From: an uncultured Actinomycetes bacterium
GTDB lineage: Bacteria; Actinomycetota; Thermoleophilia; Gaiellales; JAICJC01
Reading direction: 5' to 3'
Assembly: GCA_963731515.1 (NCBI GenBank)
Contig: CAVSVU010000017.1
Location: 861,164 to 925,163 of the forward strand
Length of the DNA stretch: 64,000 bases
Shown: positions 14,488 through 55,623 of the stretch, piece by piece
How the letters are laid out: each line of letters opens with the position of its first letter
How positions within the stretch are numbered: position 1 is the first letter of the stretch
Notes under the pieces: model-generated
The model's input: the letters and a program-made list of their open reading frames with translations, nothing else
Told to the model about the DNA's origin: nothing
Database searches by the model: none
Position numbers and translations under genes: made by a program

Positions 14488-14499
14488 CTGCCTACCCCC

Positions 14500-38859: not shown

Positions 38860-39440
38860 GGGTCGACCTGCGCGAGGCGGCGGATCAGCACGTGCCCGAT
38901 CGCAGCCAATCCCGCCGACGTCGCCAGCGAGAGCCACCCCAGCGGCGAGCGCACGAGCAGGTCGAACCCGGGACGGTCGGCGAGGTAGAGCGCCGCGACG
39001 CCGAGGCCGGGCATCGCCGTCACGATCCGGCCCGTCGCCCGCGCCTGCGCCGTCGCCACCTCCGCGGCCCGACGCTGGGCGCCGCGCTCGTGGAGCAGCT
39101 CGGCGGTGCGCTCGAGCAGGAGCGCCAGATCGCCACCGGCCCGCGTGTGCAGCCGCACGGCCGCGGCCAGGTACGCGACGTCGGCACCCTCGCCGAGCGC
39201 CGCGAACGCCTCTGCGATCGGCGTCCCCAGCGCGGCATCGGCCGCCGCAGCCGCGACGCGGCCCGCGGTCGGCTCCGGCGCGTCCTCGACCGCGTCGGCG
39301 AGCGCCTGGCGCAGCGACCTGCCGGCGCGGACGTGCGCGGCCAGGATCTCGACGACGAGCGCAAGCTGGGCGTCCTCCGACCGGCCTCGCAGGGCACGGA
39401 TCCGATCGGCGAGCGGCGTCAGGCGCCGGCGAAGGCGCAT
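38856..39440 (-). CDS. tadB: TadB-like type II secretion F-domain protein
   Basis: LAAHVRAGRSL, GGDLALLL, TAQARATG. Confidence 0.85.
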   Translation of the reverse strand: MRLRRRLTPLADRIRALRGRSEDAQLALVVEILAAHVRAGRSLRQALADAVEDAPEPTAGRVAAAAADAALGTPIAEAFAALGEGADVAYLAAAVRLHTRAGGDLALLLERTAELLHERGAQRRAAEVATAQARATGRIVTAMPGLGVAALYLADRPGFDLLVRSPLGWLSLATSAGLAAIGHVLIRRLAQVDP

Positions 39441-40577
39441 CGCCGCTCCCGCAGCTCGCCCAGCAGCCGGGCATCGAGCATGTGGAGCTGCCCGTCGCGG
39501 CCGCGGGCGTCCACGAAGCGCACCCGCCGTGAGCCGTCGCCGTCCCGCACCAGATGGACGATCACGTCGACCGCCGAGGCGACCTGCTCGCGCACCGCGG
39601 CGTGAGGCAGGTCGAGCCCGGCCATCAGCGCCATCGTCTCGATCCGGCGCACGGCGTCGGCCGGCGAGCTCGCGTGAACGGTGGTCAGCGAGCCGTCGTG
39701 GCCGGTGTTCATCGCCTGGAGCATGTCGAGCGCCTCGCCGCCGCGCACCTCGCCGACGACGATCCGGTCGGGTCGCATCCGCAGGGCGTTGCGCACGAGC
39801 GCGCGCAGCGTCACCTCGCCGCGGCCCTCGACGTTCGGCGGACGGCTCTCGAGCCGGGCGACGTGCGGCTGCGGCAGCCGCAGCTCCGCGGCATCCTCGA
39901 CCGTGACGATCCGCTCGGCCGGGTCGATGAACCCCGCGAGCGCGTTCAGGAGCGTCGTCTTCCCCGTGCCGGTGCCGCCCGACACGACGACGTTCAGTCG
40001 TCCGCGCACACAGCGCTCGAGCAGATCCGCCTGGCCGGCGGTGAGGCTCCCGGCCGCGACGAGGTCCTCCACCCGGAACGGCGCCCGGGCGAACTTGCGG
40101 ATCGTGAGCAGCGGGCCGTCGAGCGCGATCGGCGGCAGCACCGCGTTCACGCGGCTGCCGTCGGGAAGGCGAGCGTCGACCATCGGGCTCGACTCGTCCA
40201 CGCGGCGGCCGACCGAGCTGACGACCCGGTCGATCACCTGGCGCAGATGCTCGTCGTCGCGGAACGCCACCGGCTCGCGGAGGAGCCGGCCCGCCCGCTC
40301 GGCGTAGATCCGCCCGGAGCCGTTCGCGATCACCTCGGTCACGCCCCGGTCGCGCAGCAGCGGATCGAGCGGGCCGAGGCCGACGGTGTCGTCCACGATG
40401 CCGGCGACCAGGCGACGGGCGTCGGCGGGATCGAGGGCGACGCCATCGCCGTGCAGCAGCTGCCCACGCGACTCGTTCCGCCGCCGCGCGGAGGTCGCCG
40501 CTCGCGGGGCGGTCGAGCAGCTCACGCCGCAGCCGCTCGCGGTATCCGGCTGCCAGGCCGGCGATGGGATCGGTCAC
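39419..40577 (-). CDS. cpaF: TadA/CpaF pilus assembly ATPase (frameshift near 40480)
   Basis: LGPLDPLL, GGTGTGKTT, TVEDAAEL, LRMRPDRIVVGEVRG, MNTGHDGSLTTVHA. Confidence 0.93.
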
Positions 40578-41653
40578 CCCGACACCTCTGCAGCCAGCTC
40601 TCGGAGGGCGACCGCGTGCCTTCTGCCGGGCCAGCGGTCGAGCCGGGCACGGCCGTCGGCGAGGGCGTCCAGCGCCTCCGCGTCGGCACGCACGACCGCG
40701 CCGACAGGGACGCCGACCGTCCGGGCGATTCCCCGCAGGGAGAGATCGGAGCGACGGCTCCAGCGGTTGACGACCACGCGGATGCCGTCCGCGGAGCCCG
40801 CCCGTGCGAGCGTCGTCACGAGCTCGCGGCCGGCCGCCGCCGCGGGCGCGTCCGGCGTGACGACGACGAGCGCGCGGTCGGCGGCGACGGCCGCCTCACG
40901 CGACGCGGCGAACACCCCGCAGCCGGCATCGACCACCGCGGGGCCGCCCGCGCGCAGGTCGCGCACGAGCGCGGCCGCGAAGCCCCCCGGAAGCGCCGCC
41001 GCGATCTCGGGCCCGGCCGGCCCGGGCACGAGCCGCAGGCCGCACGGATGCTCGACGGCGGCGCTCGCGACGGCTGCGGCCAGCCCCTCGCCGACGTGGG
41101 CGAGGTCGGCCAGCGACCGCTCGGCGCGACACCCGAGCAGCGACGCGAGGCTCGCCCAGGAGCCCGACATGTCGACGAGCGCCGCCCCGGCCAGACGCGC
41201 GAGGGCGAGCGCCGTCGACGTTGCTCCGGTGCCGCCCTTCGCCCCCACGACCGCGGTGACGCGGCCTGCCGGCGAGGCGGCAGGCCGGCCGGATGTGACC
41301 GCCGCCTCGACGAGCACGTCACCGAGTGTGGCCGGGACGGCGGGGAGTGGCAGCACGGCACGGGCGCCGGCTGCCAGGGCGCGGCGGTAGGTGTCCACGC
41401 CGGCTGACCGCGCGAGCACGATGGCCGGGCGGCCGCACCCGGCGACGAGCTGGCGCAGCGCCGGCGCGCCGCGTTCGCCGGGGTCGGCGAGAAGCGCCAC
41501 GTCGCAGGGCGGGAGGCGGCCCGCGACGGCACGCAGGGGCGCGATCACGCCCACGAGCTGGACGCCGGGCAGGTCGTCGGCGAGCGCGGTCATCTCCGCT
41601 CCGAGGAGCGGGTCGGCGGCGACGACGAGGCAGCGGACCGTGGGCGCGATCAT
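40574..41653 (-). CDS. cpaE: CpaE/TadZ-like receiver-ParA protein
   Basis: Pseudo-receiver N-terminus, GAKGGTGATS deviant Walker A. Confidence 0.8.
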   Translation of the reverse strand: MIAPTVRCLVVAADPLLGAEMTALADDLPGVQLVGVIAPLRAVAGRLPPCDVALLADPGERGAPALRQLVAGCGRPAIVLARSAGVDTYRRALAAGARAVLPLPAVPATLGDVLVEAAVTSGRPAASPAGRVTAVVGAKGGTGATSTALALARLAGAALVDMSGSWASLASLLGCRAERSLADLAHVGEGLAAAVASAAVEHPCGLRLVPGPAGPEIAAALPGGFAAALVRDLRAGGPAVVDAGCGVFAASREAAVAADRALVVVTPDAPAAAAGRELVTTLARAGSADGIRVVVNRWSRRSDLSLRGIARTVGVPVGAVVRADAEALDALADGRARLDRWPGRRHAVALRELAAEVSG

Positions 41654-42252
41654 CCCGCCGCGTCTCCGGCCCCGCGGACCACCAGCCGCAGCGAGCCCGC
41701 GCCCTCGGCGGCGATCGCGCCGGGCACCGCGGCGGGCGGGAGCAGGAGCGTCGCGACCGACCCGGAGTCGTCCCGGCGGGCGGACAGCACGAGGACGTCC
41801 GAGAGCACGAGGCGGGTGCGGCCGCCGCGCCCGGGCGGCGTGAGATAGACGTCCGCGCGGACGCCCGCCAGATCCCCGGCCGGGAGGCCCGCCGCCTCGT
41901 CGAGCCGGATCGCCAGCTCGCGCGCGGCCGCGGGCGGCGTGTCCGAGGTGATCTCGGCGTCCATCACCGGTGCGCCGGCGACCAGCCCCACCGCGGCCCG
42001 GCGGCCGATCGCCGCAGCCGGATCCGCAAGCTGGTGCGGCGACGCCCACGTCGCCGGGATCCGCACCGTGCCGAGGTCGGCGGCGGCGATCCGGGCGCCC
42101 GCGGCAACCGGCCGGACCGCGACGACGCGCACGAGCCGCCGGCCGGCGGGCGCCTCCGCGGCCGTCCCCGAGCCCAGCCGGGCGAGGCCGAGCAGGGCGA
42201 GGACGATTCCCGCCAGCGCGAGCACGAGGCTGCGGCGGCGGTGCCGGCTCAC
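41650..42252 (-). CDS. cpaB: CpaB/RcpC SAF-domain protein
   Basis: TM, VVAVRPVAAGARIAAADL SAF motif, RADVY, VLSDVLVL. Confidence 0.8.
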   Translation of the reverse strand: MSRHRRRSLVLALAGIVLALLGLARLGSGTAAEAPAGRRLVRVVAVRPVAAGARIAAADLGTVRIPATWASPHQLADPAAAIGRRAAVGLVAGAPVMDAEITSDTPPAAARELAIRLDEAAGLPAGDLAGVRADVYLTPPGRGGRTRLVLSDVLVLSARRDDSGSVATLLLPPAAVPGAIAAEGAGSLRLVVRGAGDAAG

Positions 42253-42963
42253 GCCCGCGCCCCCGGGAGGCAGCGATTGCAGTCGGCGCCCAGCATCGGC
42301 ACGCCGCACCAGTCGCACCGCGGCGCGGACGCGATCCGCTCGCGAAGGGCCATCAGCGAGCCGGCCGGGAGGGCGGGCGCGACCAGCAGCTCCACCGTCC
42401 AGGGCACGCCGAGCGAGGCGGCCAGACCGCCCTCGAGCCATCCCAGCTGCACGCCGTCGACGCGGACGGCGGCGACCACACCTTCGGGAGCTCCGGTTCC
42501 CGACACGGCCGCGGCGCACACCGCGCGTGTCCGGCCCGCCGCGGCGATGCCGGCCAGCACATCAGGGTCGACCGGAGCCTGCGTCCAGCGGCCGGCCGAC
42601 CAGCGCGCACAGGCGCGGCGCCCTCCGCCGGACACGATCAGCCCGGCCCGGCGGAGCGACGGCGGCCGACGGGCTGACGATCCACATCGAGGCCCGGCCC
42701 TCGACGGCATCGAGGAGGGCGGCGACCTCGGGCGCCGGCCACCCCTGCTCGTGCGCGTGCGCGGCGAGTCCCGCCAGGTAGCGGCCGCCGATCCCGGGCA
42801 GGCGAACCTCGTGTCCGACGCCCGCGCCGGCGAGCCCTTCGGCCCTCGCGACCCGTCCGTGGGCCGAGAGGGCCGAGACGAGCCGCAGCGGCCGGGCGGC
42901 CGCGGGCCCGGGCTCGGCGGGGGCCTCGAGGAGGCGGAGGATCGCGGCGTCGTCCGCCGTCAT
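42249..42963 (-). CDS. Hypothetical protein with C-terminal Zn ribbon (probably frameshifted)
   Basis: ATG 42963 overlaps the kinase stop; C-terminal CDWC...CNRC lies in another frame and ends at the cpaB start. Confidence 0.5.
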
Positions 42964-43727
42964 TCGTGGTCGACCAGACAGGGCAGCGTGACGGTGAACT
43001 GCGACCCGCTCCCGACCGCGCTGGACACCGCGATCGAGCCGCCGTGGGCCTCCGTGAGCTCCCGGGCGACCGCCAGCCCCAGCCCGGCGCCGGGCTCCGG
43101 CCGCCGCGCCTGGAAGAACTCGTCGAAGATGAACGGCAGGTCGGCCTCGGCGATGCCCCGCCCCGCGTCCTCGACGGCCACCTGGAGCGTGTCGTCGACC
43201 CGCCGGGCGCGCACGGTCACGTCGGTGCCGGGCGGGGCGTACTTGATGCCGTTGGTGATGAGGTTCGCGAAGATCTGGCGGACGCGGTTCTGATCGCCAC
43301 GGACGAGCGCGCCATTGCAGGTCCACTCGAGGCGCACCCGCACTCCGCCCTGCTCGGCCACCGTCTGCAGCCGCTCGGCGACCTCACTCACGCACGGCTC
43401 GAGCGGGAACACCTCGGCGTTGACGCGCAGCTCGCCCGCCCGTGCGCGCGACAGCTCGAGCAGGTCCTCGATCAGGTAGCCGAGGCGCTCGCACTCGCCG
43501 TCGATCACGTCGAGCTTGGCGGCCTTGGCGGGATCGCACTCCGAGCGGTGGAGGGTGTAGACGTAGCCCTTGATCACCGTGAGCGGCGTCCGCAGCTCGT
43601 GCGACACCTTGCCGATGAACTCTGCCCGCGCCCGCTCCTCGCGGACGAGCAGCGTCGCCAGCTCCTCCACCGACGCGTGCACGCGGTCGTCGGCGCCGCT
43701 CCGGCGCCGGCGCAGCGCGACCCGCAT
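42960..43727 (-). CDS. Histidine kinase (HisKA + HATPase) lacking a sensor domain
   Basis: VSHELRTPL, NLITNGIKY, VEDAGRGI, GAGLGLA; ATG 43727 in a TGATG overlap with the regulator remnant. Confidence 0.92.
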   Translation of the reverse strand: MRVALRRRRSGADDRVHASVEELATLLVREERARAEFIGKVSHELRTPLTVIKGYVYTLHRSECDPAKAAKLDVIDGECERLGYLIEDLLELSRARAGELRVNAEVFPLEPCVSEVAERLQTVAEQGGVRVRLEWTCNGALVRGDQNRVRQIFANLITNGIKYAPPGTDVTVRARRVDDTLQVAVEDAGRGIAEADLPFIFDEFFQARRPEPGAGLGLAVARELTEAHGGSIAVSSAVGSGSQFTVTLPCLVDHE

Positions 43728-43852
43728 CACTCCGGCCTGCACAGGCGGTAGCCGACGCCCCACTCGTTGGCGAGCCAGCCGGCGGGGGAATGGACGCGCA
43801 GCTTCTGGCGCAGCCGGCTGGCGTGCGAGTCGAGCGTCCGGGTGCGGCCGGG
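43727..43852 (-). pseudogene. 3' remnant of an OmpR/PhoB-family response regulator, truncated by the island
   Basis: My translation: PGRTRTLDSHASRLRQKLRVHSPAGWLANEWGVGYRLCRPE-TGA (winged-helix end). An in-frame TAA at 43855-43853 and unrelated sequence lie upstream. Confidence 0.85.
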
Positions 43853-44039
43853 TTAGGAGATAAGGGGTTCCGAAACCGGCCTGCCCGCTGGTCGGGAGCC
43901 GGTGCCGTCCTAAACAACGCTCCGAGGATTCACGCGTGGCGCGCGCAACGCAAGACTTTGGTAGGCCCGACCTAGGAACAAAGTCGCTGGGTGGCCGCGC
44001 GCGTGGGCAGCGGAGCCGATGTGGTTGCCCTGGCTGGCT

Positions 44040-46475
44040 TTACCCTAGGTCCGGGGACCGCCAACGGGCCGCACTTGCCCGAGCCCGTGTCATATCGGCT
44101 CGTATAGTGGCTGCGACCGGGGCCCAATCGAACGCCAGGTCGTCGGCTCGGACGTTTTCCCATTGCGAATCTAGGTACTTAATGAAGACGCTCCCTCGCT
44201 CGAGCCTGTCCTCGACTTCGCGCACATCGCTGAGCAAGTCCGCGAATTTCTGAGTCCACAATCGGCGTGTCGACCACCGCGGCGTCGATGTAAACGAACG
44301 TGCCTATTAGGCGTTTGTAGGTATACGCCCCCCCGGTCGTGATCCGCGAAACTGCCGCGTCGATTTTCGGTCCGCATCACCGGGACTATGCAGCAGGCGC
44401 ATTCGCACACAAAGGTCAAGCGCGAACTCTACCTGCGTAGGGGTGAACCCTATTGCCTGGCCGTGCGCCATGATGGCGCTCAGGCCGACATACCCATCAA
44501 CGCCGGCGACCTGGCCGCTACGCTCGACGAATGCGAGGACGATCGGAATCAGGAAGTGCTGACGGCCGTCGTTGGTGGAGATCTCGAACACGTTCGCGAT
44601 GGGTGATGAACTTGGGTTGTAGTGAACGTTGTCCCCGTAAATGATTGCGCGGACGAACTCGTGGAGTGCAATCAGGTAGTTACCGTCAGCCTCCTCGATT
44701 TCGAAGATCTTGGCTGTATCCACATGGCCGCTGCCGACGAAAGTATTCAGGAATCCCAACGCCGACCGTATGTTGCCTCCGCTGAGGTTCTCCACAAGCT
44801 CCAAGAGCTGTGGCCTCCGTCGAAACGAGCGATCGAGAATCTTCAGGTACATACTCAGTCGGTCGGCTTGTTCATCAAGAGCGCTGGGCATAAGCTCATG
44901 GCGCGTCTCAGGACGCAGGACAAGTTCCTGGCAGAACGCGATCCGCTTTTGAATGACCTCGAGCAGGCTCGGCGGAGCGATCGTGAATACGCGAGGCTGG
45001 TACGCAGTGAGTGACCCCGCCGTGCGGGAGCGGTAGAACGTTTCGGGCCGCAAGCTGAGGAACACGGTGGCGGGCCAAGTCTGCGCCAGGCTTTGCCCGA
45101 TCAGGAAGACGCGTTCTTGGAACTCAAAGTCTCGCTGGTCGATGTTGTCCAAGAACACGATCAACTGGCGCTTCTGGGTCTTCGTCGCATACTTCAAGCT
45201 CGCCTGCAAGTGGCGGTCGCGGATCGCTAGCTTCCTCGACAACAGCTCAATCTCGCGGATGTCATACTCCTCTGGGCGACTCTTGCGGAGGCGGCCGTAG
45301 ACGCTCGTCTCGAAGCTCTGGAGCTCCGCCTTGTAGACGTTCCGGACGAACTTGTCGGCCTCGATATCGAGACCGTCTCTCGCCAGCTGCTCCGTGAAGT
45401 GCTCCGTGACGTACGCTTCGAGATCTTCGGACAACGCAGGCTCTTGTCCGAAGTCGAGCGAGAGTACGATGCTGTTGTTCACGATCTCCCGAGCGTCCAC
45501 CCGTCGGAAGTGGCGGATGAAGATTGTTTTCCCGACGCCCACGTCACCCACCAACAGGAGTGGCCGTCTCCCAAGGCTCGCTGCGACCAGATCCGACTTT
45601 AGGTCAGGCGACAGCGTTCCCTTCGAGCCTGCCGGAACCGGGGTGATGTCTTCCTCCCCCGAAGCAAGTGCCGCGTACCTTGCTTCAAGGATCTCCCGGC
45701 TTACTAAGGCATAGTCGGAAAGGGTGTGGTTCGACGAGTAGCACCTGCTCAGGAACTCGTCTTCAAGTTCAGGCGCGCTCACGATATCCAGCAATACGAG
45801 GTTGCCCAGGGTTTCGAGCCCACCCTGAATCGCGTTACGCTGCCAGTAGCCTGGATAGGTGGCGATCCGCGACGAGAGCTTCGGTGGAGGCGGCACCACA
45901 TCCGACGCACCGAGAGTGGAAACGAGTGCCTGTCGAACGACACCATCCGCGGAGAGGTTGTCCCAGAGAGCCTGAAACTCGGCGCGCATGTCGGCGAGGG
46001 ACGCGAACACGAGCGCACGGCCATCGAGCGGTGGCACACCGTCCTGCCTGCTGCCCAGGAAGGCAACGAGCTGGTGGCCGTTCGAAAACGACGCGCACGG
46101 GACACCGCGAGTGAGGCAATAGTCGCAAACCTGCCGCACCGCAGCAGCGACCGCGTCATCCGACTCCATGACGGTCTTTAGATCCATCGTCCCGGACCCC
46201 ACTCCTGCCGGCAACTCAAAATAGATGCCTTCACGCTTCGCCTCAACGATCAGGCGCGTCGAGAACTCGCCCAGCGCGTAGTCCGCGTATGTGCGTCCAT
46301 GGGGATCCTCTAGGCGAATGTGATCCTTGGGCCAGCGGAGCACGTCTGCGAGCAGCGCGTCTATTAGATGGAATCGGGTGGTCGCCTCGTTGCGCGTCTG
46401 GATACCCCGGCTCTCCCACCACTCCAGAAGGGCGTCTAAGGCTGCGCGGCCACGTTCGAACTCGTCGGCGGTCAT
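44040..46475 (-). CDS. HsdR_N-like nuclease - P-loop ATPase - winged-helix protein (about 810 aa; two frameshifts at 44220-44350)
   Basis: NEATTRFHLID..ADYAL..IVEAKR, LVGDVGVGKT (Walker A), IVFLDNID (Walker B); the C-terminus continues via YIDAAVVDTPI into 44040..44261. Confidence 0.8.
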
Positions 46476-46695
46476 CTACCGGAGAATCTAGCCCTCGGGT
46501 CGGCGGACTGTGCGTACCAGTCCCCACGAGATCCCGATCGCCTGAGGCACGTCGTGGGCACCATCTGACTCCAGCCGATGGGCGCCGGGCGTCGGATGCG
46601 CGCGCACGGCGGCAAGTGTCCGGGGTCGTGGAATCGGCGCGATTCACTCTTGTGGAGTCGGGCGCGTTCGGGCCGCCGCGTGTCACCAGACGATG

Positions 46696-49600
46696 TCACG
46701 TCCAGTTCCGGATAAGAGCTTCGAGGGCTCGTCGGTTCCGAGGGCGCGGCACCGCGCGACCCGCTCGTACCTCTTTGACCTGGCTGAGGCTGATAGTCCG
46801 ACCACCGGCATACGTGGGGAACTCGGCCACAATTGTCCTCGCGGGGATCTCGGCGAGGCGAGGGAGCCAGGTCGTGCGCCAGGGATCGGCGGCGGGATCG
46901 GCATAGGTGTTCAGGACCTCGTCGCCCGCCATGATGCCAACTTCGACTTCTTCGAGGTCGTTGGCCTCCTTCCCGATATAGGTGAGGGAGGTGGCGACGA
47001 CGGGGCGGCGCTGCAGGAGGCCGACCGTCGAGGGCCGGCAGGGTTCGCCCTCGGCGTCAAGGCTCTTCGGCTCGGGGTGGACGCGGTAGCGGGTCAGGAT
47101 GTCGGCGTAGGTGCGGACTCTGACGGCGCCGAGGTTTGGGTCGTCCTCGGCGGTCGTGATCGTGAAGTGCCGCCGGGTGTACCGGTCTTGCCAGGGGAGG
47201 TTGAGCCAGCGGGTGGGATCTCGGTCATACGGCGCGATCAGCTGGAACCGGGTGGAGTCCGCTTCAGGCGGGTGGGCGAGTGGGGCGACCTGGGTTGAGA
47301 GCAGGAAGTTGAAAGCGTTGATCTGCTCCTCGAGCGGGGCGGCCTGGTTGTACGTGCGGAACGGTCTAAGGGTGTATGGGGTGCTGACGGTGATACGGCT
47401 GACCCCGGGTCGCCCGCCCCAGTCCGGCTGGTGGTGATCGCCGCGAAAGGCGGCGAGCCACGTTTGGCGGATCCAGTCGCGGTCGCTGCTCTCGGGATCG
47501 GTTGGGTTGAGGAGGTGACCGAGGCCGTGTTCTGACCATTTCTCAAGCTTGGGCCGAAGGATCGGTGTGCCGGCGGCGTCTCGGCGGTAGAGGGCGTAGC
47601 GCTTGGCGCTGATCGCGTAGCAGAGGAGCTCCCGCTCCTCGCCGTCGATACGGTTCTCACGCTCAAGCTCGAGAACGGGCCCATCGACGATGGACCGGTC
47701 GTAGGGGTTGAGGCGAGTGAACCGGTGTCGGATCGTCTCGACGTCTTCCCACGAGATGAGCGGAATGGCGTCCGTCGGGACGTGTTCCGGGCGTTGGGTG
47801 GCGGCAATGGCGATGCTGTCGGTGTCGCAAAAGGCGTAGGTGCCGCCGGCGTCGGTGACGAGGCGTTCGGTGAGGGCGAGCATGAGCCGGGCGGCGCCGG
47901 TGATGAGGGCGGCCATGGGGGCGAAGAACCACGCGCCGGGGTCTTCCGGGGTGGCGATCGGGATGGTGAAGGTGGTGCCGTCGATGCGGCGGACGGTGAC
48001 GGGTTCGGTGCGCTTGTCGGCGAGTTCGTGGCGGACCATCTCGGCGTAGATGCCGTAGCTGCTGGCGTTCGCCAACACCTTCAGGAATGTCGTCCAGCCG
48101 GGCGTCGGCAGCTCCCGGGTCGCGCCGCAGGGCGATCTCCTTCCTCAGTTCGATCACCCGCCGGAAGAAGTCCTCTTCGGCGGGGTCGACCGGGATCTCG
48201 CCTCGGAGCATGATCCGCCGCGTGATCGACGCTTGCCGGCCGACGGGGCGCAGACGGATCGCGCGGAGGATCTTGGGCGGCTTGTGCTCCGGGTGCAGGA
48301 GCTTGGCGGCGATCACATCGGGGAGGGAGTACCAGAGTGGGAATGGGCTGGTGAGCGGATTGACGCCGATCTGCCAGCCTCCCCCGGCCTGGTAGCGCGC
48401 GCGAATGGGGAGCACGTCGCCGTCCGGCGCGACCTGCACGAGCGCACAGAGGCCTCGCCAGGTGTCAGGGTGGAAGCAGTCGTCGAGGGTGATCGTGTCG
48501 AGGAGGCGGCGGACTTCGGTGGTCGCGTCGGGCGTGTCGATGCGCTCGCAGGTGACCATCGACCACAGGTCCATGAGGCTGTTGACGGTGGGGTACATGG
48601 AGAGGAAGTCGCAGTAGCGCACCGGCACGGTGTGGCGGCGGATGCGGCATTCGGCGCGGCCGCCGTAGTAGGCGGAGGTGGCGTAGCCGAGCACCTCTTC
48701 GGGGAAGTCGGGCTGACGCGCCAGGGGCGGCTGGATCCCCATCGCGGTCAGGTACGCCTTGCCGATGCTGGCGGGCGAGTACGCCTTGGTGGCCGGCAGC
48801 GTGACGGGGTGACGGGCGTACTCCGCCATCAGCCGCTCGTACAGCTCGCCGGTGGCGCGGACGTCGGCGCGGTTGTAGTCGATGTAGGCCGGCGTGATCC
48901 GGCCGTGCTCCTCGGCCTCCTCCTTCGGGTTGGCCACGGCGAAGTCATCGCAGGCGCGGCCGAGCGTATAGCCCTCGTTGGTGAGCGCGAACGCCAGCGT
49001 CCGCAGGTCGAGGAAGTGGCCGAAGAACTGCCGTTCCGGGTGCGCCGCGACGGCGTCTGCGTGTTCGGGGAGGCGAAACCCGATCAGGTGGCGTTTGGAG
49101 TCGATCGTCTTGACCGCGACCCGCGGGCGATACCGCGAGTCGTCAAACCATCCCCCGTCCTTGCGCCGGCCGCGGATGATCGGCAGCGAGAAACCACCCT
49201 CGAACGCGTCGCGACGCCCTCCAGGGTCACGGTTCCTCGTCTCGCCCGCCTGCTTGTACACGAGCCGCGATAGGTCGAACGGGAGATTGAACCCGACGAT
49301 CAGCGCCTGCTGCTCAAACCCGATCCGAAACAGCACCTCCTCGGCAAAGGTGGAACGCGAGTAAAGGCGCAGGTGCCAGGACGGCGGCTGTGCGGCGGGA
49401 TCGATATCAGGCTCGTGGTCGCGGGCGTACGCCTCGAGCGTCGCGTACCCGCCCGGATTACGGGCGGGGAGCGAGTCGTCGTAGATCAGCCCCTCCTCCA
49501 GGCAGCGCAGCGTCGGCACACCGTCAGTCCAGGTCGCGTGGAAGTAGCGCCACGAGCCGAAAGGTCAGCTGCTGCCCGGGATCGACCGTCGTCTCGCAGT

Positions 49601-49733
49601 CGAACACGACCACGATCTTCGGTTCACGGTTCTCCTGTTCGGCCTCGTGAGGCTCATCATCCGCGGCCGGCAGACAACCCGCACTCGGCGCGTACGCCCG
49701 AACCGCGATCGGAAGCCTCGACGTGGCCGTCAT
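46696..49733 (-). CDS. polB: Family B DNA polymerase, casposon-type (about 1010 aa; indels near 49560 and 48100)
   Basis: Exo I VFDCETT, Exo II VGFNLPFD, Exo III YNRADV, YYGGR, motif A DFLSMYP, motif B KVLANASSYG, motif C CDTDS, KRY. Confidence 0.92.
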
Positions 49734-49737
49734 CCGC

Positions 49738-50628
49738 CTATGCCTCGGCGATCAGCTCATCCAGGGCCGCCTCCGCGTCCCCGCTCGTATGAGCGTCGGC
49801 GAGCCGCACGTAGAACCGCTGGATGACGTCGTTTACACGGACGGCCTTCACCAGATTCGTGACCAGCACCCGACCTTGTTCGTCTTCACTTGCGCGTGGA
49901 TCGAACGGCTCGAGGTCGAGCGACCGCCCCAGCTTCTGGACGGCGTCGAAGTACTCGCCGGACCGGCCCGACTCCACCAGCAGCAAGAACCCGCGACCGA
50001 CGTCCTCGTGACGCGCCGCAAGCTGCTCGAGCTCCTGGGTGCGGCAGGTATCGCCGAGCATGCTGCGGGCTGCCCCCGCTTCCAAATCAAGAACCCCTCG
50101 CGCCTGGATACGGTCTGTCGCGTCACGTTTGGACCGCGGCGGCGGTTTCCGCACTCTCGGCGAGCTCCACCGCTTCGCCGCAGTTCGCGCCGGTGACCCC
50201 CCGGCGAGGCGTCGATCGCGAAGGCGGGGATCCGGCCCGACCACCCGATCCGTGATGTCGGGAGGGTCAATCTGAAAGATCGTTTGCGTGCCCGTGTCGC
50301 CAAGCCGCTCCATCACGTCGCCCTCGCCGTCCATCCGTGCGTAGCGCATGGCCAGGGCGAGGACGTCCGTGAGCCCGCCGAACACGCCTGCGGCGCGTTC
50401 CGCCTCCGACCGCTCCTCATGGTCTAGGCGGACACCGCGTGCCCGCTGCTGCTCCGTTAACACCTCATGGCAGTAGGAGCCGTCCCGCCGGCACGCCCCG
50501 ACCGTGAGCCCGCGATCGTTGGCGTGACCGGCGACGTGGTGCTGTTCGATCTTCGCCGGCGTCGTCCGCCCACACGTGAGGCACACCTCGCCTGGCTGCA
50601 CCCACCCTGAGTCGAGCCGGGACGTCAT
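49738..50628 (-). CDS. HNH-like Zn-binding endonuclease-domain protein
   Basis: CLTCG..EQHHVAGHAND..C..CH N-terminal domain; ATGA overlap with the upstream HTH gene, stop 4 nt from the polB ATG. Confidence 0.7.
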   Translation of the reverse strand: MTSRLDSGWVQPGEVCLTCGRTTPAKIEQHHVAGHANDRGLTVGACRRDGSYCHEVLTEQQRARGVRLDHEERSEAERAAGVFGGLTDVLALAMRYARMDGEGDVMERLGDTGTQTIFQIDPPDITDRVVGPDPRLRDRRLAGGSPARTAAKRWSSPRVRKPPPRSKRDATDRIQARGVLDLEAGAARSMLGDTCRTQELEQLAARHEDVGRGFLLLVESGRSGEYFDAVQKLGRSLDLEPFDPRASEDEQGRVLVTNLVKAVRVNDVIQRFYVRLADAHTSGDAEAALDELIAEA

Positions 50629-51140
50629 GCCGCGGTGAGCGCGTAGAACTCGTCGAAATCCGGCTCGCCTCGCAGGGCAGCCTCCTCGATCACGTCCGGA
50701 TCCGTCTCCAACAGGACGCCGCCGAACGAGCGGCCGCGGAAGGGGACGAGCGCGTCGACGTCGCCCTCCAGAAACCGGTCGACCGCCTGGTTGTACTTCG
50801 CGATCGTGCTCGCCTGGCGACTCCCCGTCACGGTCACCAGCCGAGCGCCGTCAGGCGTCCGCACCCGCACCCGCCGCACCAGGCGGTCACCGGAGCGGAC
50901 ACGGACCCGTGCCCGGGCGCTGCTCCGCCTAAACGCCGACCCCGCATACCGCAAGACCGTCTGCCGCGTCGTCCCAAGCGCCTTGGCCGCCCGGGTCAAC
51001 GACTCCCGCCCGTCACCCCGCCGAAGCCGATGCACCACCCGAAGCGCCTTCTCATACCGGGCCCGCTCGCGAGGCGACAGGCGCTCGAACTGCTTCGCAG
51101 ATCGAGGCTCCTTCGCGCCCTTCATGGCATTCGTCGGCAT
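50625..51140 (-). CDS. HTH DNA-binding protein
   Basis: SLTRAAKALGTTRQTVLRY HTH; ATG 51140 with a GGAG RBS. Confidence 0.8.
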   Translation of the reverse strand: MPTNAMKGAKEPRSAKQFERLSPRERARYEKALRVVHRLRRGDGRESLTRAAKALGTTRQTVLRYAGSAFRRSSARARVRVRSGDRLVRRVRVRTPDGARLVTVTGSRQASTIAKYNQAVDRFLEGDVDALVPFRGRSFGGVLLETDPDVIEEAALRGEPDFDEFYALTAA

Positions 51141-51209
51141 AGGTTCTCCGTCGACTCGAGCGGGTCGGCTGCCGGCTCGGATAGACAGCGAGCACGGCAC
51201 GGCGCACCT

Positions 51210-51249
51210 CCCGGCTCGCCCGTGATATCCACCTCACGAGCGAGCCGGG
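51210..51249. other. 16-bp-stem inverted repeat in the divergent casposon intergenic region
   Basis: CCCGGCTCGCCCGTGA-TATCCACC-TCACGAGCGAGCCGGG, one mismatch. Confidence 0.7.
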
Positions 51250-51431
51250 TTAGGCCTTCCCGTTCCCCTCGGCGAGGCGTCTCGGTGACAGTGACCAGCT
51301 TCGTCCTGTCAGCTAGCTGCAGCTGCCTCTAGTGAAGCGAGGTGGTCGGGGGTGAACGGGTGGTGTCGGGAGAGTGTCGGGCCTGCGGGCCGAAAGTGTT
51401 TGCATGAGTTCCGACCCCTAATCTGTTCGCG

Positions 51432-52271
51432 TTGCCCACCCGTGTCCCCAGCCGAGCCGACCGCGCCCTCGCCACGAAGCTACGCGAGGAGGGCTATGGC
51501 TGGGTGCGCGACACGCAGCTCCAGGGCTGGCGACGCGCCGGTGCGCTGCCCGAGGTCACGGTCGTCCGACCGGCGCGACGCGGCTCAGAGTCGGTGTACC
51601 CCGAGGGCACCCTCGACCAGGCCAGGGCGTTGTGCGCGTACCTGGAGCGCTACCGCGACCTTGATAAGGCCGTCGTGCTCTTGTGGTTGTCCGGCCACCC
51701 GATCGAGACCCGCGCCCTCCGGCGCGCGTTCAGACGTGGCCTAGGCTGGATGGACAAGACCATCGCCGCCCACCGCGTCAAAGGCATGAGCGACGACCAG
51801 CTCGCGAGCCGCGTCGCGCGCGCCATCGTCGCCAGCCCGAGGCGCACACACGACGACCAAGCCACTCGCCGGAAGGCGATCCAGACGGCCGGCGGGCGCC
51901 AAGAACTCGCCGACGTCTACAAGCAATTCGTGCTCCTCTACCTCGGCGCTCCGGTCGGGGCTGCCGGATTTCTCGGCGCAGTGCGCGCCGCCGGATGGAA
52001 CCTCCCAGCGACCGACCTGGCGGATGGCCCCCTCTCGCAGCGGCTTGACGAACTCCAGGCAGAACCCGGCGCCGCCGGCGGACTCGGCACCATGCTCCGC
52101 ACCCGAGTCCCCGGCATGACCGCCGAGGACTTCAACGGCCTCCGAGGATTCCTTAAAGGCATGTGCGAGTTCGCGGTTCAGGGCGGCGATAGCTTCGGCC
52201 TCCCGAACACGGGCTTCCTCACCGACTGCGCCCACGCTCTCGGCTACCACGACCCCGGGCACACCCGGTAG
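51432..52271 (+). CDS. Hypothetical protein with MerR-like N-terminal HTH
   Basis: LQGWRRAGALP..GSESVYP; directly upstream of cas1; TTG start uncertain. Confidence 0.6.
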   Translation: MPTRVPSRADRALATKLREEGYGWVRDTQLQGWRRAGALPEVTVVRPARRGSESVYPEGTLDQARALCAYLERYRDLDKAVVLLWLSGHPIETRALRRAFRRGLGWMDKTIAAHRVKGMSDDQLASRVARAIVASPRRTHDDQATRRKAIQTAGGRQELADVYKQFVLLYLGAPVGAAGFLGAVRAAGWNLPATDLADGPLSQRLDELQAEPGAAGGLGTMLRTRVPGMTAEDFNGLRGFLKGMCEFAVQGGDSFGLPNTGFLTDCAHALGYHDPGHTR

Positions 52272-52345
52272 AGTCGCTTCTACATTCAGCGGCCCGGCGA
52301 CGCGGCAACGTCCCGGGCCCGGCACCGGAACAACGGAGGTTCCAG

Positions 52346-53878
52346 ATGCCCGCCCAACCTAGCGCACCGCTGACCCACGACGACGCCGGGGCGCGCGCCC
52401 ACGAGAGCCGCTTCCCGGACAATGTGACGGGTGTTCGGGTCGTCGACGGGTACGGCGTCAAGATCTCGGTCAGGCGCCGCATGCTCGTCGTGGAGGACGG
52501 GATCGGCCGTCAGCGCCGACAGACGACGCATGCCCGGGCGACCTGCCCGTTCCGCCGACTGCTCATCCTCGGCCACACCGGCTACATCTCCCTCGAGGCC
52601 ATCCGCTGGTGCTGGGACCTCGGGATCGGCATCGTCCACATCGACGCCGACCGCAACCTCCTCCTGACCAGCGCCCGCCGCGACGTCGCCACCAACCGCC
52701 TACGCCGCGTACAAGCCTTCGCCCCATACACCGAGCTGGGCGTCGAGGCGGCTCGGCTCGTGATGCGATCGAAGCTGGCCGGCCAGCAGGACGTGGCGCG
52801 CAATCTGAGCGGCGGTTGTGGCGACGCTGCGGTATCGACGATCGGCGACGCCCTCAGGGCCGTCGAGGCCGCGTCCACGCTTGACGACGTGCTCGCTGCC
52901 GAGTCGACCGCGGCGTTCGCATACTGGGACACGTGGAGCCGGCTCCCACTCCGCTTCGCCAGTCGTGGCGGCCGCGAGGTGCCGGGTCACTGGGCCACGT
53001 TCGGAATCCGGTCGTCGCCGATCTCGGGGACACGCCGCCACGCAGCCACCCCCGCGAACGCGCTCCTGAATTACGCCTATGCCCTTCTTGAGGCGGAGAC
53101 CACGCTCGCACTTCACGCCTCGGGACTCGACCCTGCACTGGGGATCTGGCACCGCGATGAGGCTGGCCGCGACTCGCTCGCGCTGGATGTCATGGAGGCG
53201 GCACGCCCGGCCGCCGATCGTCTTGTCCTACGGCTCCTGACCGACGGCGCGTTGCGTCCACGCGACTTCTACGAGACCCGCCGGGGGGCGTGTCGTGTTC
53301 TCCCGCCGCTCTCGCACCACCTCGCCACCTGGATGTCCACACTCGCAGGCGCAATCGAGCCGACCGTGCTCCAGCTGGGTCGGCTGTTCGACCGCACCGT
53401 CGACGTGGAAGACGCCGGCGGCGTCCTGTTTGCGCGGCCTCGACGCTCCGAGCATCGGCGAGCGTCGGTACGGAGCACCTGGCCGGGCCAACACGTCATC
53501 CGGGCCTGCCGGGTGTGCGGCGTCGTTCTCCCGGTCGGATCCCGAGACGCCCACTGCGAGAACTGCGCGCCGCACCGCCCGCCAAGCGCCGACGCCGCGC
53601 ACCGCGACGCCGGTGCCCGCGTCACTCAAGCCCGGCGTGACAGTATCCGCCGTCAGCGTGTCGCGGCACTCGAATGGGATCGCCACAACACCCGACCCAA
53701 CCCGGCCATCTTCCAGGTCGAGATCCTGCCGCACCTCCAGGGCATCAGCTACTCGGCGCTAGCACGAGCAACCGGACTCAGCCGCCGCTATACGAAACTG
53801 ATAGCGACCGGCCAGGCGACCCCACACCCGATGCATTGGGCCGCGTTCCGATCCGCGGGCCAGGCGCGCAGCATCTGA
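52346..53878 (+). CDS. cas1: Stand-alone Cas1 (casposase) with C-terminal Zn finger and HTH
   Basis: ISLEAIRWC, AESTAAFAYW (E), NALLNYAYALL, GLDPALGIWH (H), SLALDVMEAARP (D/E), then CRVC..CENC and an HTH; GGAGG RBS. Confidence 0.93.
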   Translation: MPAQPSAPLTHDDAGARAHESRFPDNVTGVRVVDGYGVKISVRRRMLVVEDGIGRQRRQTTHARATCPFRRLLILGHTGYISLEAIRWCWDLGIGIVHIDADRNLLLTSARRDVATNRLRRVQAFAPYTELGVEAARLVMRSKLAGQQDVARNLSGGCGDAAVSTIGDALRAVEAASTLDDVLAAESTAAFAYWDTWSRLPLRFASRGGREVPGHWATFGIRSSPISGTRRHAATPANALLNYAYALLEAETTLALHASGLDPALGIWHRDEAGRDSLALDVMEAARPAADRLVLRLLTDGALRPRDFYETRRGACRVLPPLSHHLATWMSTLAGAIEPTVLQLGRLFDRTVDVEDAGGVLFARPRRSEHRRASVRSTWPGQHVIRACRVCGVVLPVGSRDAHCENCAPHRPPSADAAHRDAGARVTQARRDSIRRQRVAALEWDRHNTRPNPAIFQVEILPHLQGISYSALARATGLSRRYTKLIATGQATPHPMHWAAFRSAGQARSI

Positions 53879-54064
53879 CTCGAGACGAACTCGACGGCCG
53901 AGGGTCACGGATTGGGGATTCCTACGTCAGACTGTCCATGCCGCGGCTCCTTGGGAGTTGAAGGCCGAGTTCTGCGCCGAAAGGACAACCGCGTGCTGAG
54001 CCGAAGACTCCGAGCGGACCAGCCGTCGTGATCGACACAACCTGTCTACGGAAAGGGGAACAAC

Positions 54065-54517
54065 TTGAGGCGCGCTCTGATTGTCACCACGGTAGCCTTG
54101 GCGATGAGCATCGCGACCGTAAATTCAGCCGAAGCCGCTCCGAAGTGGCCAGCCCGTTGCACGACGTGGAAATGTGTGAACGCCCACCTGAACAGCCTGC
54201 ACGCGACGGTCCTGGCGCAGAAGACCAGAATCACGAAGGTGAACACAAACCTCAACGGATTTTTCGGCTGTCTGTACGAAGCCCCAGTGACCGAGTATGG
54301 CGACCCCTCAGGGACATTCGGATATCTGTGGACGGACGATGGCAACCCGGCAGACGCCTATGCCACCAGCGGGTTCGACTACACAAATAGCGGCAATATC
54401 CCAGACTTCTGGGCCTTCGTCGACAATTGCAGTCGCAACACTCCAGCTCGGGTCGGGCAGCAGACCCTGAGTCGGGGCGGATACTCCACGCATCTGCTCG
54501 CCGGCTCGCGCAGGTAA
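54065..54517 (+). CDS. Secreted hypothetical protein (4 Cys)
   Basis: Signal peptide ending AEA; AAGGGGAA RBS-like sequence. Confidence 0.7.
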   Translation: MRRALIVTTVALAMSIATVNSAEAAPKWPARCTTWKCVNAHLNSLHATVLAQKTRITKVNTNLNGFFGCLYEAPVTEYGDPSGTFGYLWTDDGNPADAYATSGFDYTNSGNIPDFWAFVDNCSRNTPARVGQQTLSRGGYSTHLLAGSRR

Positions 54518-54540
54518 CCGACCCCGCGCGCACAAACGGT

Positions 54541-54571
54541 GCGGCCACCGGGTAGCACACTCGGTGGCCGC
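54541..54571. terminator. 10-bp-stem hairpin between convergent genes
   Basis: GCGGCCACCG-N11-CGGTGGCCGC. Confidence 0.45.
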
Positions 54572-54685
54572 TACGTGCGCTTGCAGCGCCACGGTTTTCC
54601 ACCGGCATCGCCGTCGCGTTGATCGCGGACGGCCGGACCCCGCAAGGGGCGGCGCTTCGCCGGGTAGGTGCGGATACCGTTCAGG

Positions 54686-55120: not shown

Positions 55121-55239
55121 GCTACGCACCTCCCGAGGTGACGAGGGATCGCCAGACCGTAGCTCACCCGAATGGGGCACGCCACCTCGCGATCCCACTC
55201 CTAGGATCGCGGCTGTCCCGACCGACGGAGAGGTGATCG

Positions 55240-55617: not shown

Positions 55618-55623
55618 TGCCGG

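What the first reader, a model, noticed from the sequence alone, without database searches (positions are those of the whole stretch)
43727..43870. Island inserted inside an OmpR-family response regulator gene that heads the kinase-Tad pilus operon
Seen: an unannotated 41-codon stretch (PGRTRTLDSHASRLRQKL...WGVGYRL) is the end of an OmpR winged helix, and its TGA overlaps the kinase ATG. Upstream it meets an in-frame TAA and A/T-richer DNA (TTAGGAGATAAGGGGTTCCGAAACC on +). This fixes the left junction at about 43,853. Known casposon targets include tRNA and aEF-2 genes. Inference: a protein-coding regulator gene is a new target. The insertion may silence or re-wire Tad pili, which are potential phage receptors, while adding defence genes.
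Basis: partly seen in the sequence, partly recalled or inferred. Interest (0 to 1): 0.75.

Follow-up and report, generated by a model that had tools for sequence, protein, structure and literature searches.

The report
Casposon inserted inside a response-regulator gene
A self-replicating Cas1 transposon (casposon) carrying defence-type cargo has cut a two-component response-regulator gene in two at one exact spot ahead of a Tad-pilus operon, and related casposons sit at the same spot in other soil Gaiellales, which makes this a new, gene-disrupting casposon target.

Summary
Window 43730-43849 (-) holds the last 40 codons of an OmpR-type response regulator (RR). It is 97.5% identical to the intact 235-aa RR of a close relative, and its stop overlaps the kinase start. 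Homology to two empty-site genomes stops exactly at 43849. From 43850 onward lies lower-GC DNA (59-70% against 72-80%) with Cas1, a family-B polymerase split by a frameshift, and McrBC-like genes.

The 33 nt at 43850-43882 (GGGTTAGGAGATAAGGGGTTCCGAAACCGGCCT) are a transposon terminus. The same sequence abuts the RR 5' half in inverted sense in three other Gaiellales contigs. It also forms both inverted ends of a 2.6-kb element with a 14-bp target duplication.

A related Cas1-PolB element (L110, 16,051 bp) is complete in the same RR codons. It has about 40-bp inverted ends and a perfect 15-bp duplication (GGCCGCACGCGCACG, codons 196-200). A third element (L114) abuts the same codon.

No integrase was found in the visible 20 kb. 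The RR loses its recognition helix and wing, and no replacement 3' end is supplied.

The right end lies beyond 64,000 and could not be fetched. Published bacterial casposons are described as intergenic. I rate this a new variant of a known kind.

The parts
43727..43849 (-). 3' remnant of the OmpR-family response-regulator gene: codons 196-235 plus the TGA stop. It encodes the recognition helix and wing.
   Evidence: Pfam Trans_reg_C positions 42-77 of 77. tblastn 97.5% identity to the L003 RR, residues 196-235. Homology to empty sites ends at 43849.
43836..43849 (.). One copy of the target-site duplication: GTCCGGGTGCGGCC on +, which is GGCCGCACCCGGAC (RR codons 196-200, GRTRT) on -. It is 14 bp, or 15 bp (43835-43849) if the ambiguous G is counted. 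The second copy should lie beyond 64,000.
   Evidence: The same codons are kept on the truncated 5' halves in L085, L087, L088, L084 and L114. They are duplicated perfectly in L110 at 892-906 and 16958-16972.
43850..43882 (+). Left terminal inverted repeat of the casposon (GGGTTAGGAGATAAGGGGTTCCGAAACCGGCCT).
   Evidence: 97% identical over 34 nt to the L085 junction, where it abuts the RR 5' half. It recurs in L087 and L088/89 and in 17 metagenome contigs. It forms both inverted ends of the L102 element. It occurs once in the window.
43850..64000 (.). Visible part of the inserted element, at least 20.15 kb; the right end is outside the window.
   Evidence: GC drop. No second terminus in the window. 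No RR 5' half in the window.
44307..46475 (-). Cargo: 722-aa P-loop NTPase (weak AAA_16 match). It is co-oriented with the kinase-Tad operon and ends 457 nt from the terminus.
   Evidence: Pfam AAA_16, E 4.3e-07, below the curated cut-off. No PADLOC or NCBIfam hit.
46696..49519 (-). Family-B DNA polymerase gene, split into two overlapping ORFs (47663-49519 and 46696-48078) by one frameshift at about 48,088-48,104.
   Evidence: Motif A (DFLSMYPT) lies in the first ORF; motif C (FCDTDS) and KRYA lie in the second. Both ORFs match the single 1141-1142-aa proteins of L110 and L114 in consecutive frames. Weak Pfam DNA_pol_B_2, E 0.0049.
50625..51200 (-). 191-aa core gene conserved in the related Cas1-PolB elements; function unknown.
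   Evidence: tblastn hits in L110, L111, L112, L113 and L114, 28-41% identity. No Pfam hit.
52346..53878 (+). Casposase: 510-aa Cas1 homologue with an extension of about 190 aa at the C-terminus. It is intact.
   Evidence: Pfam Cas_Cas1 132.5 bits. TIGR00287 107.5 bits against a 71.7 cut-off. PDB matches include the M. mazei casposase 6opm, E 5e-18. 61% identical to the Cas1 of the complete element L110. No CRISPR array.
55237..55617 (+). DUF4177 gene; the same domain is fused to the closest Cas1 relative.
   Evidence: Pfam DUF4177, E 4.4e-11. P0259 (72% identical Cas1) carries PF13783.
55990..60781 (+). McrBC-like cargo pair: an 850-aa AAA_5 GTPase-type protein (55990-58542) and a 598-aa DUF2357 + PD-(D/E)XK nuclease (58985-60781).
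   Evidence: Pfam AAA_5, PDDEXK_7 and DUF2357. PADLOC candidate-defence models PDC-S02 and PDC-M26A. A non-homologous McrBC pair is cargo in L114.
42960..43727 (-). Cognate histidine kinase, intact, now separated from the RR 5' half and its promoter.
   Evidence: Pfam HisKA and HATPase_c. 86-92% identical orthologues follow an intact RR in L001 and L003.
39419..42519 (-). Tad/Flp pilus genes downstream of the kinase: CpaB-like SAF protein, CpaE/TadZ-like ATPase and CpaF/TadA ATPase.
   Evidence: Pfam SAF/RcpC, CbiA and T2SSE. Same gene order in L001, L002 and L110.

Best explanation
The DNA right of 43,849 is the left end of a large casposon, more than 20 kb long. A casposon is a self-synthesising transposon moved by a Cas1-type integrase (casposase). 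This one has integrated site-specifically inside the coding sequence of an OmpR-family response regulator (RR), at codons 196-200 (GRTRT).

The inferred mechanism is as follows. The casposase binds the roughly 33-nt inverted termini (GGGTTAGGAGATAAGGG...CGAAAC...). It makes a cut staggered by 14-15 bp in the target GGCCGCACCCGGAC(G) and joins the element ends. Repair then duplicates the target. One copy stays on the RR 5' half at the far end, and the other starts the 40-codon remnant seen here.

The insertion removes the recognition helix and wing from the RR. In elements with the window's type of terminus, the reading frame ends one codon into the terminus. It also separates the intact kinase and the Tad-pilus operon from the RR promoter. 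Their transcription must therefore come from read-through of the co-oriented cargo gene or from an internal promoter; this step is inferred, not shown.

Shown: the truncation point; that the terminus acts as an inverted repeat elsewhere; the complete TIR + TSD + Cas1 + PolB architecture at the same codons in a relative; and the absence of a recombinase in the visible 20 kb.

Inferred: that the window's own far end is the mirror image, that Cas1 is the enzyme responsible, and the regulatory consequences.
For: RR remnant and exact breakpoint.

Empty sites with an intact 235-aa RR directly upstream of the same kinase-Tad operon: L001 and L003.

Six RR protein clusters from different Gaiellales (74-95% identity) all break after GRTRT: P0129, P0131, P0187, P0192, P0218 and P0229.

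At DNA level, the window's terminus follows ...ACG in L085, L087 and L088/89, abutting the RR 5' half. This is the inverse of its relation to the RR 3' half in the window.

L102 carries two inverted copies of the terminus 2.6 kb apart, flanked by GTCAAACCGCGCCA and GTCAAACCGGGCGA, which match at 12 of 14 positions.

L110 is a complete 16,051-bp element. It has Cas1 (61% identical), a 1142-aa PolB, about 40-nt TIRs (2 mismatches) and a perfect 15-bp TSD, between RR aa 1-200 and RR aa 196-235 followed by the kinase and Tad genes.

L114 is a third Cas1-PolB element whose terminus abuts RR codon 200.

Relative to the RR, Cas1 points one way in L110 and the other way in the window and L114, as expected for symmetric ends.

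Cas1 is intact and is not next to a CRISPR array. PolB motifs A and C are present.

A TSD of 14-15 bp matches the casposon median of 15 and the 15 bp measured in vitro (PMC4046053, PMC9939771).
Against: The window's right terminus, second TSD copy and RR 5' half are not visible, and the source contig could not be read beyond 64,000.

The element is longer than any relative examined; L110 is 16 kb. The distal 10 kb could therefore include another inserted element.

PolB is interrupted by at least one frameshift. The copy may be decaying, or the long-read assembly may be in error.

The window's terminus type was found next to Cas1 only in the window itself. The complete Cas1-bearing relatives have a related but different terminus (GAGAAAACAGATAGAGAGGGCGAAAC).

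No biochemical evidence ties this Cas1 to these ends.
Confidence: 0.85

Rival explanations
1. The island is a larger integrative element moved by a tyrosine or serine recombinase encoded beyond 64,000, with the RR codons as its att core. The Cas1-PolB module would be only a passenger or a nested element.
For: The right end is unseen. The island exceeds 20 kb. GC varies within it: 0.59-0.60 at 44-46 kb, 0.65-0.70 at 46-54 kb and 0.63-0.66 at 54-64 kb. In L002 a different island with serine recombinases occupies the same RR gene. No inverted repeats bracket the Cas1-PolB core inside the window.
Against: The L002 island breaks the RR at codon ~111, not 196-200, and shares no DNA with the window's island. 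L110 shows that a Cas1-PolB element bounded by TIRs and a 15-bp TSD occupies exactly these codons; the only recombinase-type gene on record there is an IS3 transposase. The window's boundary sequence behaves as an inverted repeat, not as one arm of an att site. The bases kept next to the junction differ with each host's codon usage (GGACGCACGCGCACG, GGTCGCACGCGGACG, GGCAAGACACGGACG). This fits a duplicated host target rather than a core brought by the element.
Confidence: 0.08
2. The GGGTTAGGAGATAAGGG termini belong to a transposon family moved by some other, unidentified transposase. Cas1 and PolB would then be cargo.
For: The terminus is found in 17 metagenome contigs in non-RR contexts with no Cas1 in view. 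The 2.6-kb L102 element carries only a Band_7 gene and a 178-aa ORF.
Against: Those contigs are short, and L102 is best read as a non-autonomous derivative. Three independent elements at this RR site all carry Cas1 + PolB, with no other transposase on record except an IS3 insertion. A 14-15-bp TSD is the casposase signature (PMC4046053, PMC9939771) and is unusual for IS families (my own knowledge).
Confidence: 0.05
3. The junction is an assembly chimera, or a deletion or rearrangement that happens to end in the RR gene.
For: The source is probably a long-read metagenome assembly, since sister contigs show many frameshifts (L086). PolB carries a frameshift.
Against: The same breakpoint, to the base, recurs in independent assemblies from JGI and ENA samples: L084, L085, L087, L088, L089, L110 and L114.
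Confidence: 0.02

Closest known systems
Family 3 (bacterial) casposons, e.g. HenMar-C1, NitAL212-C1 and the Streptomyces albulus PD-1 element (Krupovic et al. 2014, PMC4046053; 2016, PMC4779613)
   Same: Bacterial host, including an actinobacterial precedent. Cas1-solo with a C-terminal extension plus a family-B polymerase. TIRs within the published 25-602 nt range. TSD near the published median of 15 bp. Variable cargo that includes restriction/defence-type genes and IS insertions.
   Different: Published family 3 elements are all intergenic; this one sits inside a protein-coding gene. No HNH endonuclease gene was detected, although one is reported in all family 2 and 3 elements. Family placement by Cas1 phylogeny was not tested. 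At more than 20 kb the window's copy is larger than the relatives examined here.
Family 1 thaumarchaeal casposons in the 3' end of aEF-2, and family 2/4 casposons at tRNA 3' ends (A. boonei tRNA-Pro, M. mazei tRNA-Leu; PMC5137440, PMC6977970, PMC8464041)
   Same: Strict site-specific integration at a conserved gene sequence. The same site is used repeatedly in diverged genomes. TSD of 14-15 bp.
   Different: Those insertions leave the target gene's product unaltered. Here 35 of 235 codons (recognition helix and wing) are cut off and nothing replaces them, and the downstream operon is detached from the gene's promoter.
Integrase-type islands and prophages that split genes (e.g. large serine recombinase elements such as the B. 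subtilis skin or SPbeta elements; from my own knowledge)
   Same: A mobile element interrupts a regulatory or developmental gene at one fixed position. In principle this allows on/off control by excision.
   Different: No recombinase or att architecture is present; the element has inverted ends and a target duplication. Precise excision of casposons that restores the gene has not been shown for this family.

Membership tests
Casposon (Krupovic et al. 2014) | Encodes a Cas1 homologue (casposase) that is not part of a CRISPR-cas locus | tested here: met
   Cas_Cas1 132.5 bits. TIGR00287 above its cut-off. PDB hits to Cas1 and to casposase 6opm. No repeat array in 43-64 kb. No Cas2 or other cas domain among the ORFs scanned.
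Casposon (Krupovic et al. 2014) | Encodes a family-B DNA polymerase | tested here: met
   Motifs A (DFLSMYPT), C (FCDTDS) and KRYA. Homologous to the intact 1141-1142-aa proteins of L110 and L114. The Pfam hit is only weak (E 0.0049), and the gene is split by a frameshift at about 48.09-48.10 kb.
Casposon (Krupovic et al. 2014) | Terminal inverted repeats at both ends | tested here: inconclusive
   Only the left terminus (43850-43882) is in the window. The same sequence is found in inverted relation to the RR in L085, L087 and L088 and as both ends of the L102 element. Complete ~40-nt TIRs are seen in the relative L110.
Casposon (Krupovic et al. 2014) | Target-site duplication of about 14-15 bp flanking the element | tested here: inconclusive
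   One copy is in the window (43836-43849). The matching copy is kept on the truncated RR 5' halves of other genomes. A perfect 15-bp TSD is seen in L110 and an imperfect 14-bp one (12/14) in L102.
Casposon (Krupovic et al. 2014) | No tyrosine/serine recombinase or conserved transposase in the element | tested here: met
   About 20 ORFs between 43.85 and 64.0 kb were scanned against Pfam with no recombinase or transposase hit. This holds only for the visible 20 kb.
Casposon family 3 | HNH endonuclease gene (reported in all family 2 and 3 elements, PMC4046053) | tested here: not met
   No HNH domain was found in any scanned ORF of the window, L110 or L114 at E <= 0.01. A divergent HNH could have been missed.
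Casposon family 3 | Cas1 falls in the family 3 clade of the Cas1 tree | not tested
   No reference family 1-4 casposase sequences were at hand except PDB 6opm (family 2), which matches at E 5e-18, no better than CRISPR Cas1 4n06 at 5e-23.
OmpR/PhoB-family response regulator (the target gene) | Receiver domain plus C-terminal winged-helix Trans_reg_C domain | tested here: met
   The orthologues in L001 and L003 have Response_reg + Trans_reg_C over 235 aa. The window keeps only Trans_reg_C positions 42-77, so the gene is a fragment here.
Integrase-mediated genomic island | Recombinase gene near one end and direct att repeats with element-derived core | tested here: not met
   No recombinase in the visible 20 kb. 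The boundary is an inverted-repeat terminus. The far end was not seen.

The most novel reading that the evidence does not exclude
These elements may represent a widespread, undescribed clade of soil-bacterial casposons. On this reading they share a conserved terminus (GGGTTAGGAGATAAGGG-N-CGAAAC and variants) and include short non-autonomous 'mini-casposons'. Their casposases would recognise several distinct targets, one of them inside a response-regulator gene. Insertion and possible excision there would act as a heritable on/off switch for the two-component control of Tad pili, while also delivering McrBC-type defence cargo.
Probability: 0.3. Interest if true: 0.8.

Novelty: new variant of a known kind. 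Interest (0 to 1): 0.62.

Why it matters
Casposons are the proposed ancestors of the CRISPR adaptation machinery, and very few bacterial ones have been described. The literature I could search (PMC4046053, PMC4779613, PMC9939771) describes their targets as intergenic regions, tRNA 3' ends and the aEF-2 3' end, always leaving the target gene intact.

Here a bacterial casposase lineage uses one defined 14-15-bp target inside a coding sequence. It does so in at least three Cas1-bearing elements and several further junction contigs from diverged Gaiellales, and in both orientations. That provides a natural, matched set of terminus, target and enzyme for biochemical work on how a bacterial casposase selects its target, which parallels leader-repeat recognition by CRISPR Cas1.

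It is also a case where a casposon has a direct phenotypic cost or effect. It truncates a regulator and uncouples a kinase-Tad pilus operon from its promoter. The same element family carries defence-type cargo (McrBC-like pairs in two of the three elements).

Finally, the 2.6-kb element with the same ends and a 14-bp duplication suggests that non-autonomous derivatives exist.

Tried and rejected
- **Second terminus or other inverted or direct repeats bracketing the island or the Cas1-PolB core inside the window.** The repeat finder, Smith-Waterman and ungapped scans gave only noise.
- **Fetching the source contig beyond 64,000.** Exact look-up of window proteins gave either no record or only a 4.9-kb Logan contig without DNA; the 0.2-1 Mb block was not read. 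Cluster listings did not reveal the source genome's RR 5' fragment.
- **First metagenome scan with a strict terminus pattern.** It gave 0 hits. The looser pattern gave 17.
- **Viral contigs.** No Cas1 relative was found. The three 16-mer terminus hits were chance matches in low-GC phage contigs.
- **The idea that the terminus is a structured RNA or a guide-RNA scaffold (TnpB/IS110-like).** There was no Rfam hit and no fold better than shuffles. The geometry (same sequence on both sides of the target, in inverted sense) fits a TIR, so I rejected the idea.
- **L086 (kinase fused to Trans_reg_C).** It turned out to be a frameshift-ridden empty site and was not informative.
- **L112/L113 (Cas1 58% identical).** No clear TIRs were found, and I did not pursue them.
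- **Promoter and terminator consensus scan between the cargo gene and the kinase.** Nothing was found, and the sigma-70 consensus may not apply to this lineage.
- **PDB and Pfam searches with the intact L110 PolB.** No significant hit. Polymerase identity rests on motifs A and C and the weak Pfam hit.
Full report
**1. The observation**

The window has 72-80% GC up to about 43.8 kb and 59-70% GC from 44 kb to the end.

On the minus strand, 43849-43730 encodes GRTRTLDSHASRLRQKLRVHSPAGWLANEWGVGYRLCRPE, followed by TGA. Pfam places this stretch at positions 42-77 of the 77-position Trans_reg_C model, at 28.6 bits and above the curated cut-off. The stop shares a base with the ATG of a 255-aa histidine kinase (HisKA + HATPase_c). 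Downstream of the kinase lie CpaB-like, CpaE-like and CpaF Tad-pilus genes.

The codon before G196 (CCC) and the in-frame TAA belong to foreign DNA. The junction moves only slightly, to 43,849/43,850.

**2. Empty sites and the lineage**

Orthologues of the kinase (86-92% identical) come from Gaiellales metagenome bins. In L001 (a 2.6-Mb ENA contig) and L003 (GCA_046732235.1), an intact 235-aa RR with receiver and winged-helix domains sits directly upstream of the kinase and the same Tad genes.

tblastn with these RRs finds only residues 196-235 in the window (97.5% identity to L003). Nucleotide homology to both loci ends at 43849. The RR 5' half is not anywhere in the window.

**3. The breakpoint is a recurrent, exact site**

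I searched with the N-terminal 195 residues of the L003 RR. Among more than 100 intact orthologue clusters, six were cut at the same place...WGFRSQGRTRT followed by G-stop (P0187, P0192, P0218), GE-stop (P0229), GNR-stop (P0129) or GLVGSCS-stop (P0131).

At DNA level, the RR 5' half runs to ...ACG in L085, L087 and L088/L089. It is then followed by GGTTAGGAGATAAGGG(G/T)...CGAAAC(CGGCCT).

The same 33-34 nt lie at window 43849-43882 (97% identical). There, however, they abut the RR 3' half, in the opposite sense relative to the gene. An element whose two ends read the same from outside inwards has terminal inverted repeats.

Codons 196-200 are present both on the truncated 5' halves and on the window's 3' remnant. 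The target is therefore duplicated.

**4. Direct proof in relatives**

The terminus pattern occurs in 17 JGI metagenome contigs, in other contexts, with both flanks variable.

In L102, two inverted copies lie 2,611 bp apart. They are flanked by GTCAAACCGCGCCA and GTCAAACCGGGCGA, which match at 12 of 14 positions. Their cargo is a Band_7 gene and no Cas1.

The Cas1 of the window (510 aa) has about 200 relatives of 490-560 aa. The locus of P0260 (61% identical; L110, a 4.28-Mb contig) contains, in order:
- RR aa 1-200 at 307-906;
- an element at 907-16957, with a 1142-aa polymerase, small conserved genes, Cas1 and an IS3 insertion;
- RR aa 196-235 at 16958-17077;
- the kinase and Tad genes.

The element's ends are GAGAAAACAGATAGAGAGGG(T/C)GAAACGCCGCA(A/G)AAGCGCGG in inverted orientation. 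The flanking GGCCGCACGCGCACG is repeated perfectly.

This terminus is also the one in L084. It shares the AGATA-GGG-CGAAAC core with the window's terminus.

L114 (Cas1 58% identical) is a third Cas1-PolB element. Its terminus, GGAGAGTAGATAGAGAGGGCGAAAC, follows RR codon 200.

Cas1 points the same way as the RR in L110 and the opposite way in L114 and in the window. Both orientations therefore occur.

If the first G of the terminus is assigned to the TIR, as the GGGTTAGG form in most other loci suggests, the duplication is 14 bp. Otherwise it is 15 bp. Krupovic et al. noted such TIR/TSD overlap (PMC4046053).

**5. What the window's element contains**

| Window coordinates | Strand | Content |
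|---|---|---|
| 43850-43882 | + | Left TIR |
| 44307-46475 | - | 722-aa P-loop protein, co-oriented with the kinase |
| 46696-49519 | - | Polymerase |
| 50625-51200 | - | Conserved 191-aa gene |
| 52346-53878 | + | Intact Cas1 |
| 54686-55198 | - | Lamin-tail-domain protein |
| 55237-55617 | + | DUF4177 gene |
| 55990-60781 | + | McrB-like AAA_5 protein and DUF2357 + PD-(D/E)XK partner |
| 61339-62469 | - | FlgD_ig protein with a hydrophobic N-terminal stretch (seen in the translation; not tested for export) |
| 62641 to the window end | - | Further ORFs |

- **Polymerase.** Motif A lies in ORF 47663-49519 and motif C in ORF 46696-48078. Both ORFs match the single proteins of L110 and L114 in consecutive frames, with the frame change at about 48,088-48,104. 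This is either a real frameshift or a long-read assembly error.
- **DUF4177.** The same domain is fused to the closest Cas1 relative, P0259.
- **McrBC-like pair.** The AAA_5 protein hits candidate-defence models in PADLOC.

No CRISPR array was found. No recombinase or transposase domain was found among the ORFs scanned. No second terminus is present. The element is therefore at least 20.15 kb long and continues past the window. L114 also carries a McrBC pair, not homologous to the window's, next to its polymerase.

**6. Consequence for the host genes**

Part of this is shown and part is inferred.

Shown: the RR loses Trans_reg_C positions 42-77. No replacement 3' end is supplied: the frame reads ACG GGT TAG in elements with the window's type of terminus, and 64 unrelated codons in L110. 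The kinase and Tad genes are intact.

From established knowledge of OmpR/PhoB regulators, the lost segment is the recognition helix and the wing. The truncated protein should therefore not bind DNA.

Inferred: the kinase-Tad operon is detached from the RR promoter. It may be transcribed by read-through from the co-oriented cargo gene. No promoter or terminator consensus was found in the 457-nt spacer, and that scan may not suit this phylum. Links to phage receptors are speculation.

**7. Comparison with what is known**

Casposons are defined by Cas1 + PolB, TIRs of 25-602 nt and TSDs with a median of 15 bp, with no other recombinase (PMC4046053). In vitro integration gives 15-bp duplications, and target choice depends on a sequence next to the duplicated segment (PMC5137440, PMC6977970, reviewed in PMC9939771).

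[quoted passage not shown] No paper in the library links casposons with response regulators as targets.

The present elements satisfy the casposon definition. This is complete in L110; in the window one end is missing. They differ in three ways:
- They insert inside a coding sequence and truncate it.
- Their termini are not ones I could find described.
- They lack a detectable HNH gene.

Family assignment was not tested.

**8. Rivals**

- **An integrase island with the casposon as passenger.** This cannot be excluded for the window's unseen distal part, but it is unlikely. The boundary is a TIR, the same codons hold a complete TIR/TSD casposon in L110, and the host-specific bases next to the junction argue for a duplicated target rather than an att core.
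- **A different transposase using these ends.** This is unlikely, because three independent elements at this site all carry Cas1 + PolB and nothing else that could do the job.
- **Misassembly.** This is excluded by recurrence of the junction in independent assemblies.

**9. Verdict**

The finding is real and its interpretation is supported. It is a casposon integrated site-specifically within a response-regulator gene at the head of a kinase-Tad operon. It is a new variant of a known kind of element.

Confidence in the main explanation is about 0.85. The missing piece is the window's own right junction.

Noticed in passing
L002:1-9632 (ENA ERZ25039457 contig_18236): A second, unrelated island interrupts the same RR gene at a different position: about codon 111, at the KPF motif, with the junction at L002 9627-9632. 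It carries two serine-recombinase genes (1-2027) and an AAA_25 protein (6123-7538). The sister contig L001 has the intact gene and is otherwise almost identical (2 differences in 11 kb). This RR gene appears to be an insertion hotspot for two kinds of mobile element.
   Followed up: partly
L102:8453-11063 (JGI Ga0209014_10001804): A 2,611-bp element has the window-type terminus at both ends in inverted orientation and an imperfect 14-bp target duplication. It carries a Band_7/SPFH gene and a 178-aa ORF but no Cas1 or PolB. It lies 18 nt downstream of the stop codon of a gene whose product resembles the C-terminal part of type I restriction enzyme HsdR (by eye from the translation; not scanned). 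It is a candidate non-autonomous 'mini-casposon'.
   Followed up: partly
L094, L096, L097, L100, L102, L105, L106 (metagenome contigs): In several non-RR insertions, the sequence GTCAAAC (GTCAATT in L100) starts 14 nt (15 in L100) outside the terminus. This suggests a second preferred target motif for elements with this terminus. L102 and L105 contain genes whose products resemble the HsdR C-terminus (by eye; not scanned).
   Followed up: no
window:48088-48104 and possibly 49505-49520: The casposon polymerase gene changes frame once between motifs A and C. A weak frame -3 match at 49715-49506 hints at a second break near its 5' end. This could be decay of the element or long-read assembly error; a sister contig, L086, is full of frameshifts.
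   Followed up: partly
window:55237-55617 (+): A small DUF4177 gene lies 1.4 kb downstream of Cas1. The closest Cas1 relative in the database (P0259, 72% identical) has DUF4177 fused to Cas1. The domain may be a functional partner of this casposase lineage.
   Followed up: no
L110:12044-13230: The complete casposon in L110 carries an IS3-family transposase pair (HTH_Tnp_1 + rve) inserted between Cas1 and the right end. This resembles the IS insertions reported in other casposons.
   Followed up: no
L114:93-2635 and window:55990-60781: Two of the three casposons at this RR site carry McrBC-type GTPase + nuclease pairs that are not homologous to each other. Restriction-type cargo seems to have been acquired repeatedly.
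   Followed up: no
L106:7459-8419: In one metagenome contig the terminus lies about 230 nt upstream of a different OmpR-family RR gene, which is followed by a kinase-like ORF. I could not tell whether these genes are cargo or whether this is another RR-associated target.
   Followed up: no
P0149 (SRA-derived protein): One RR fragment looks chimeric. Its first ~125 residues resemble the L003-type RR and the rest resembles the P0192/P0218-type. This could reflect recombination between RR alleles or a read-assembly artefact.
   Followed up: no
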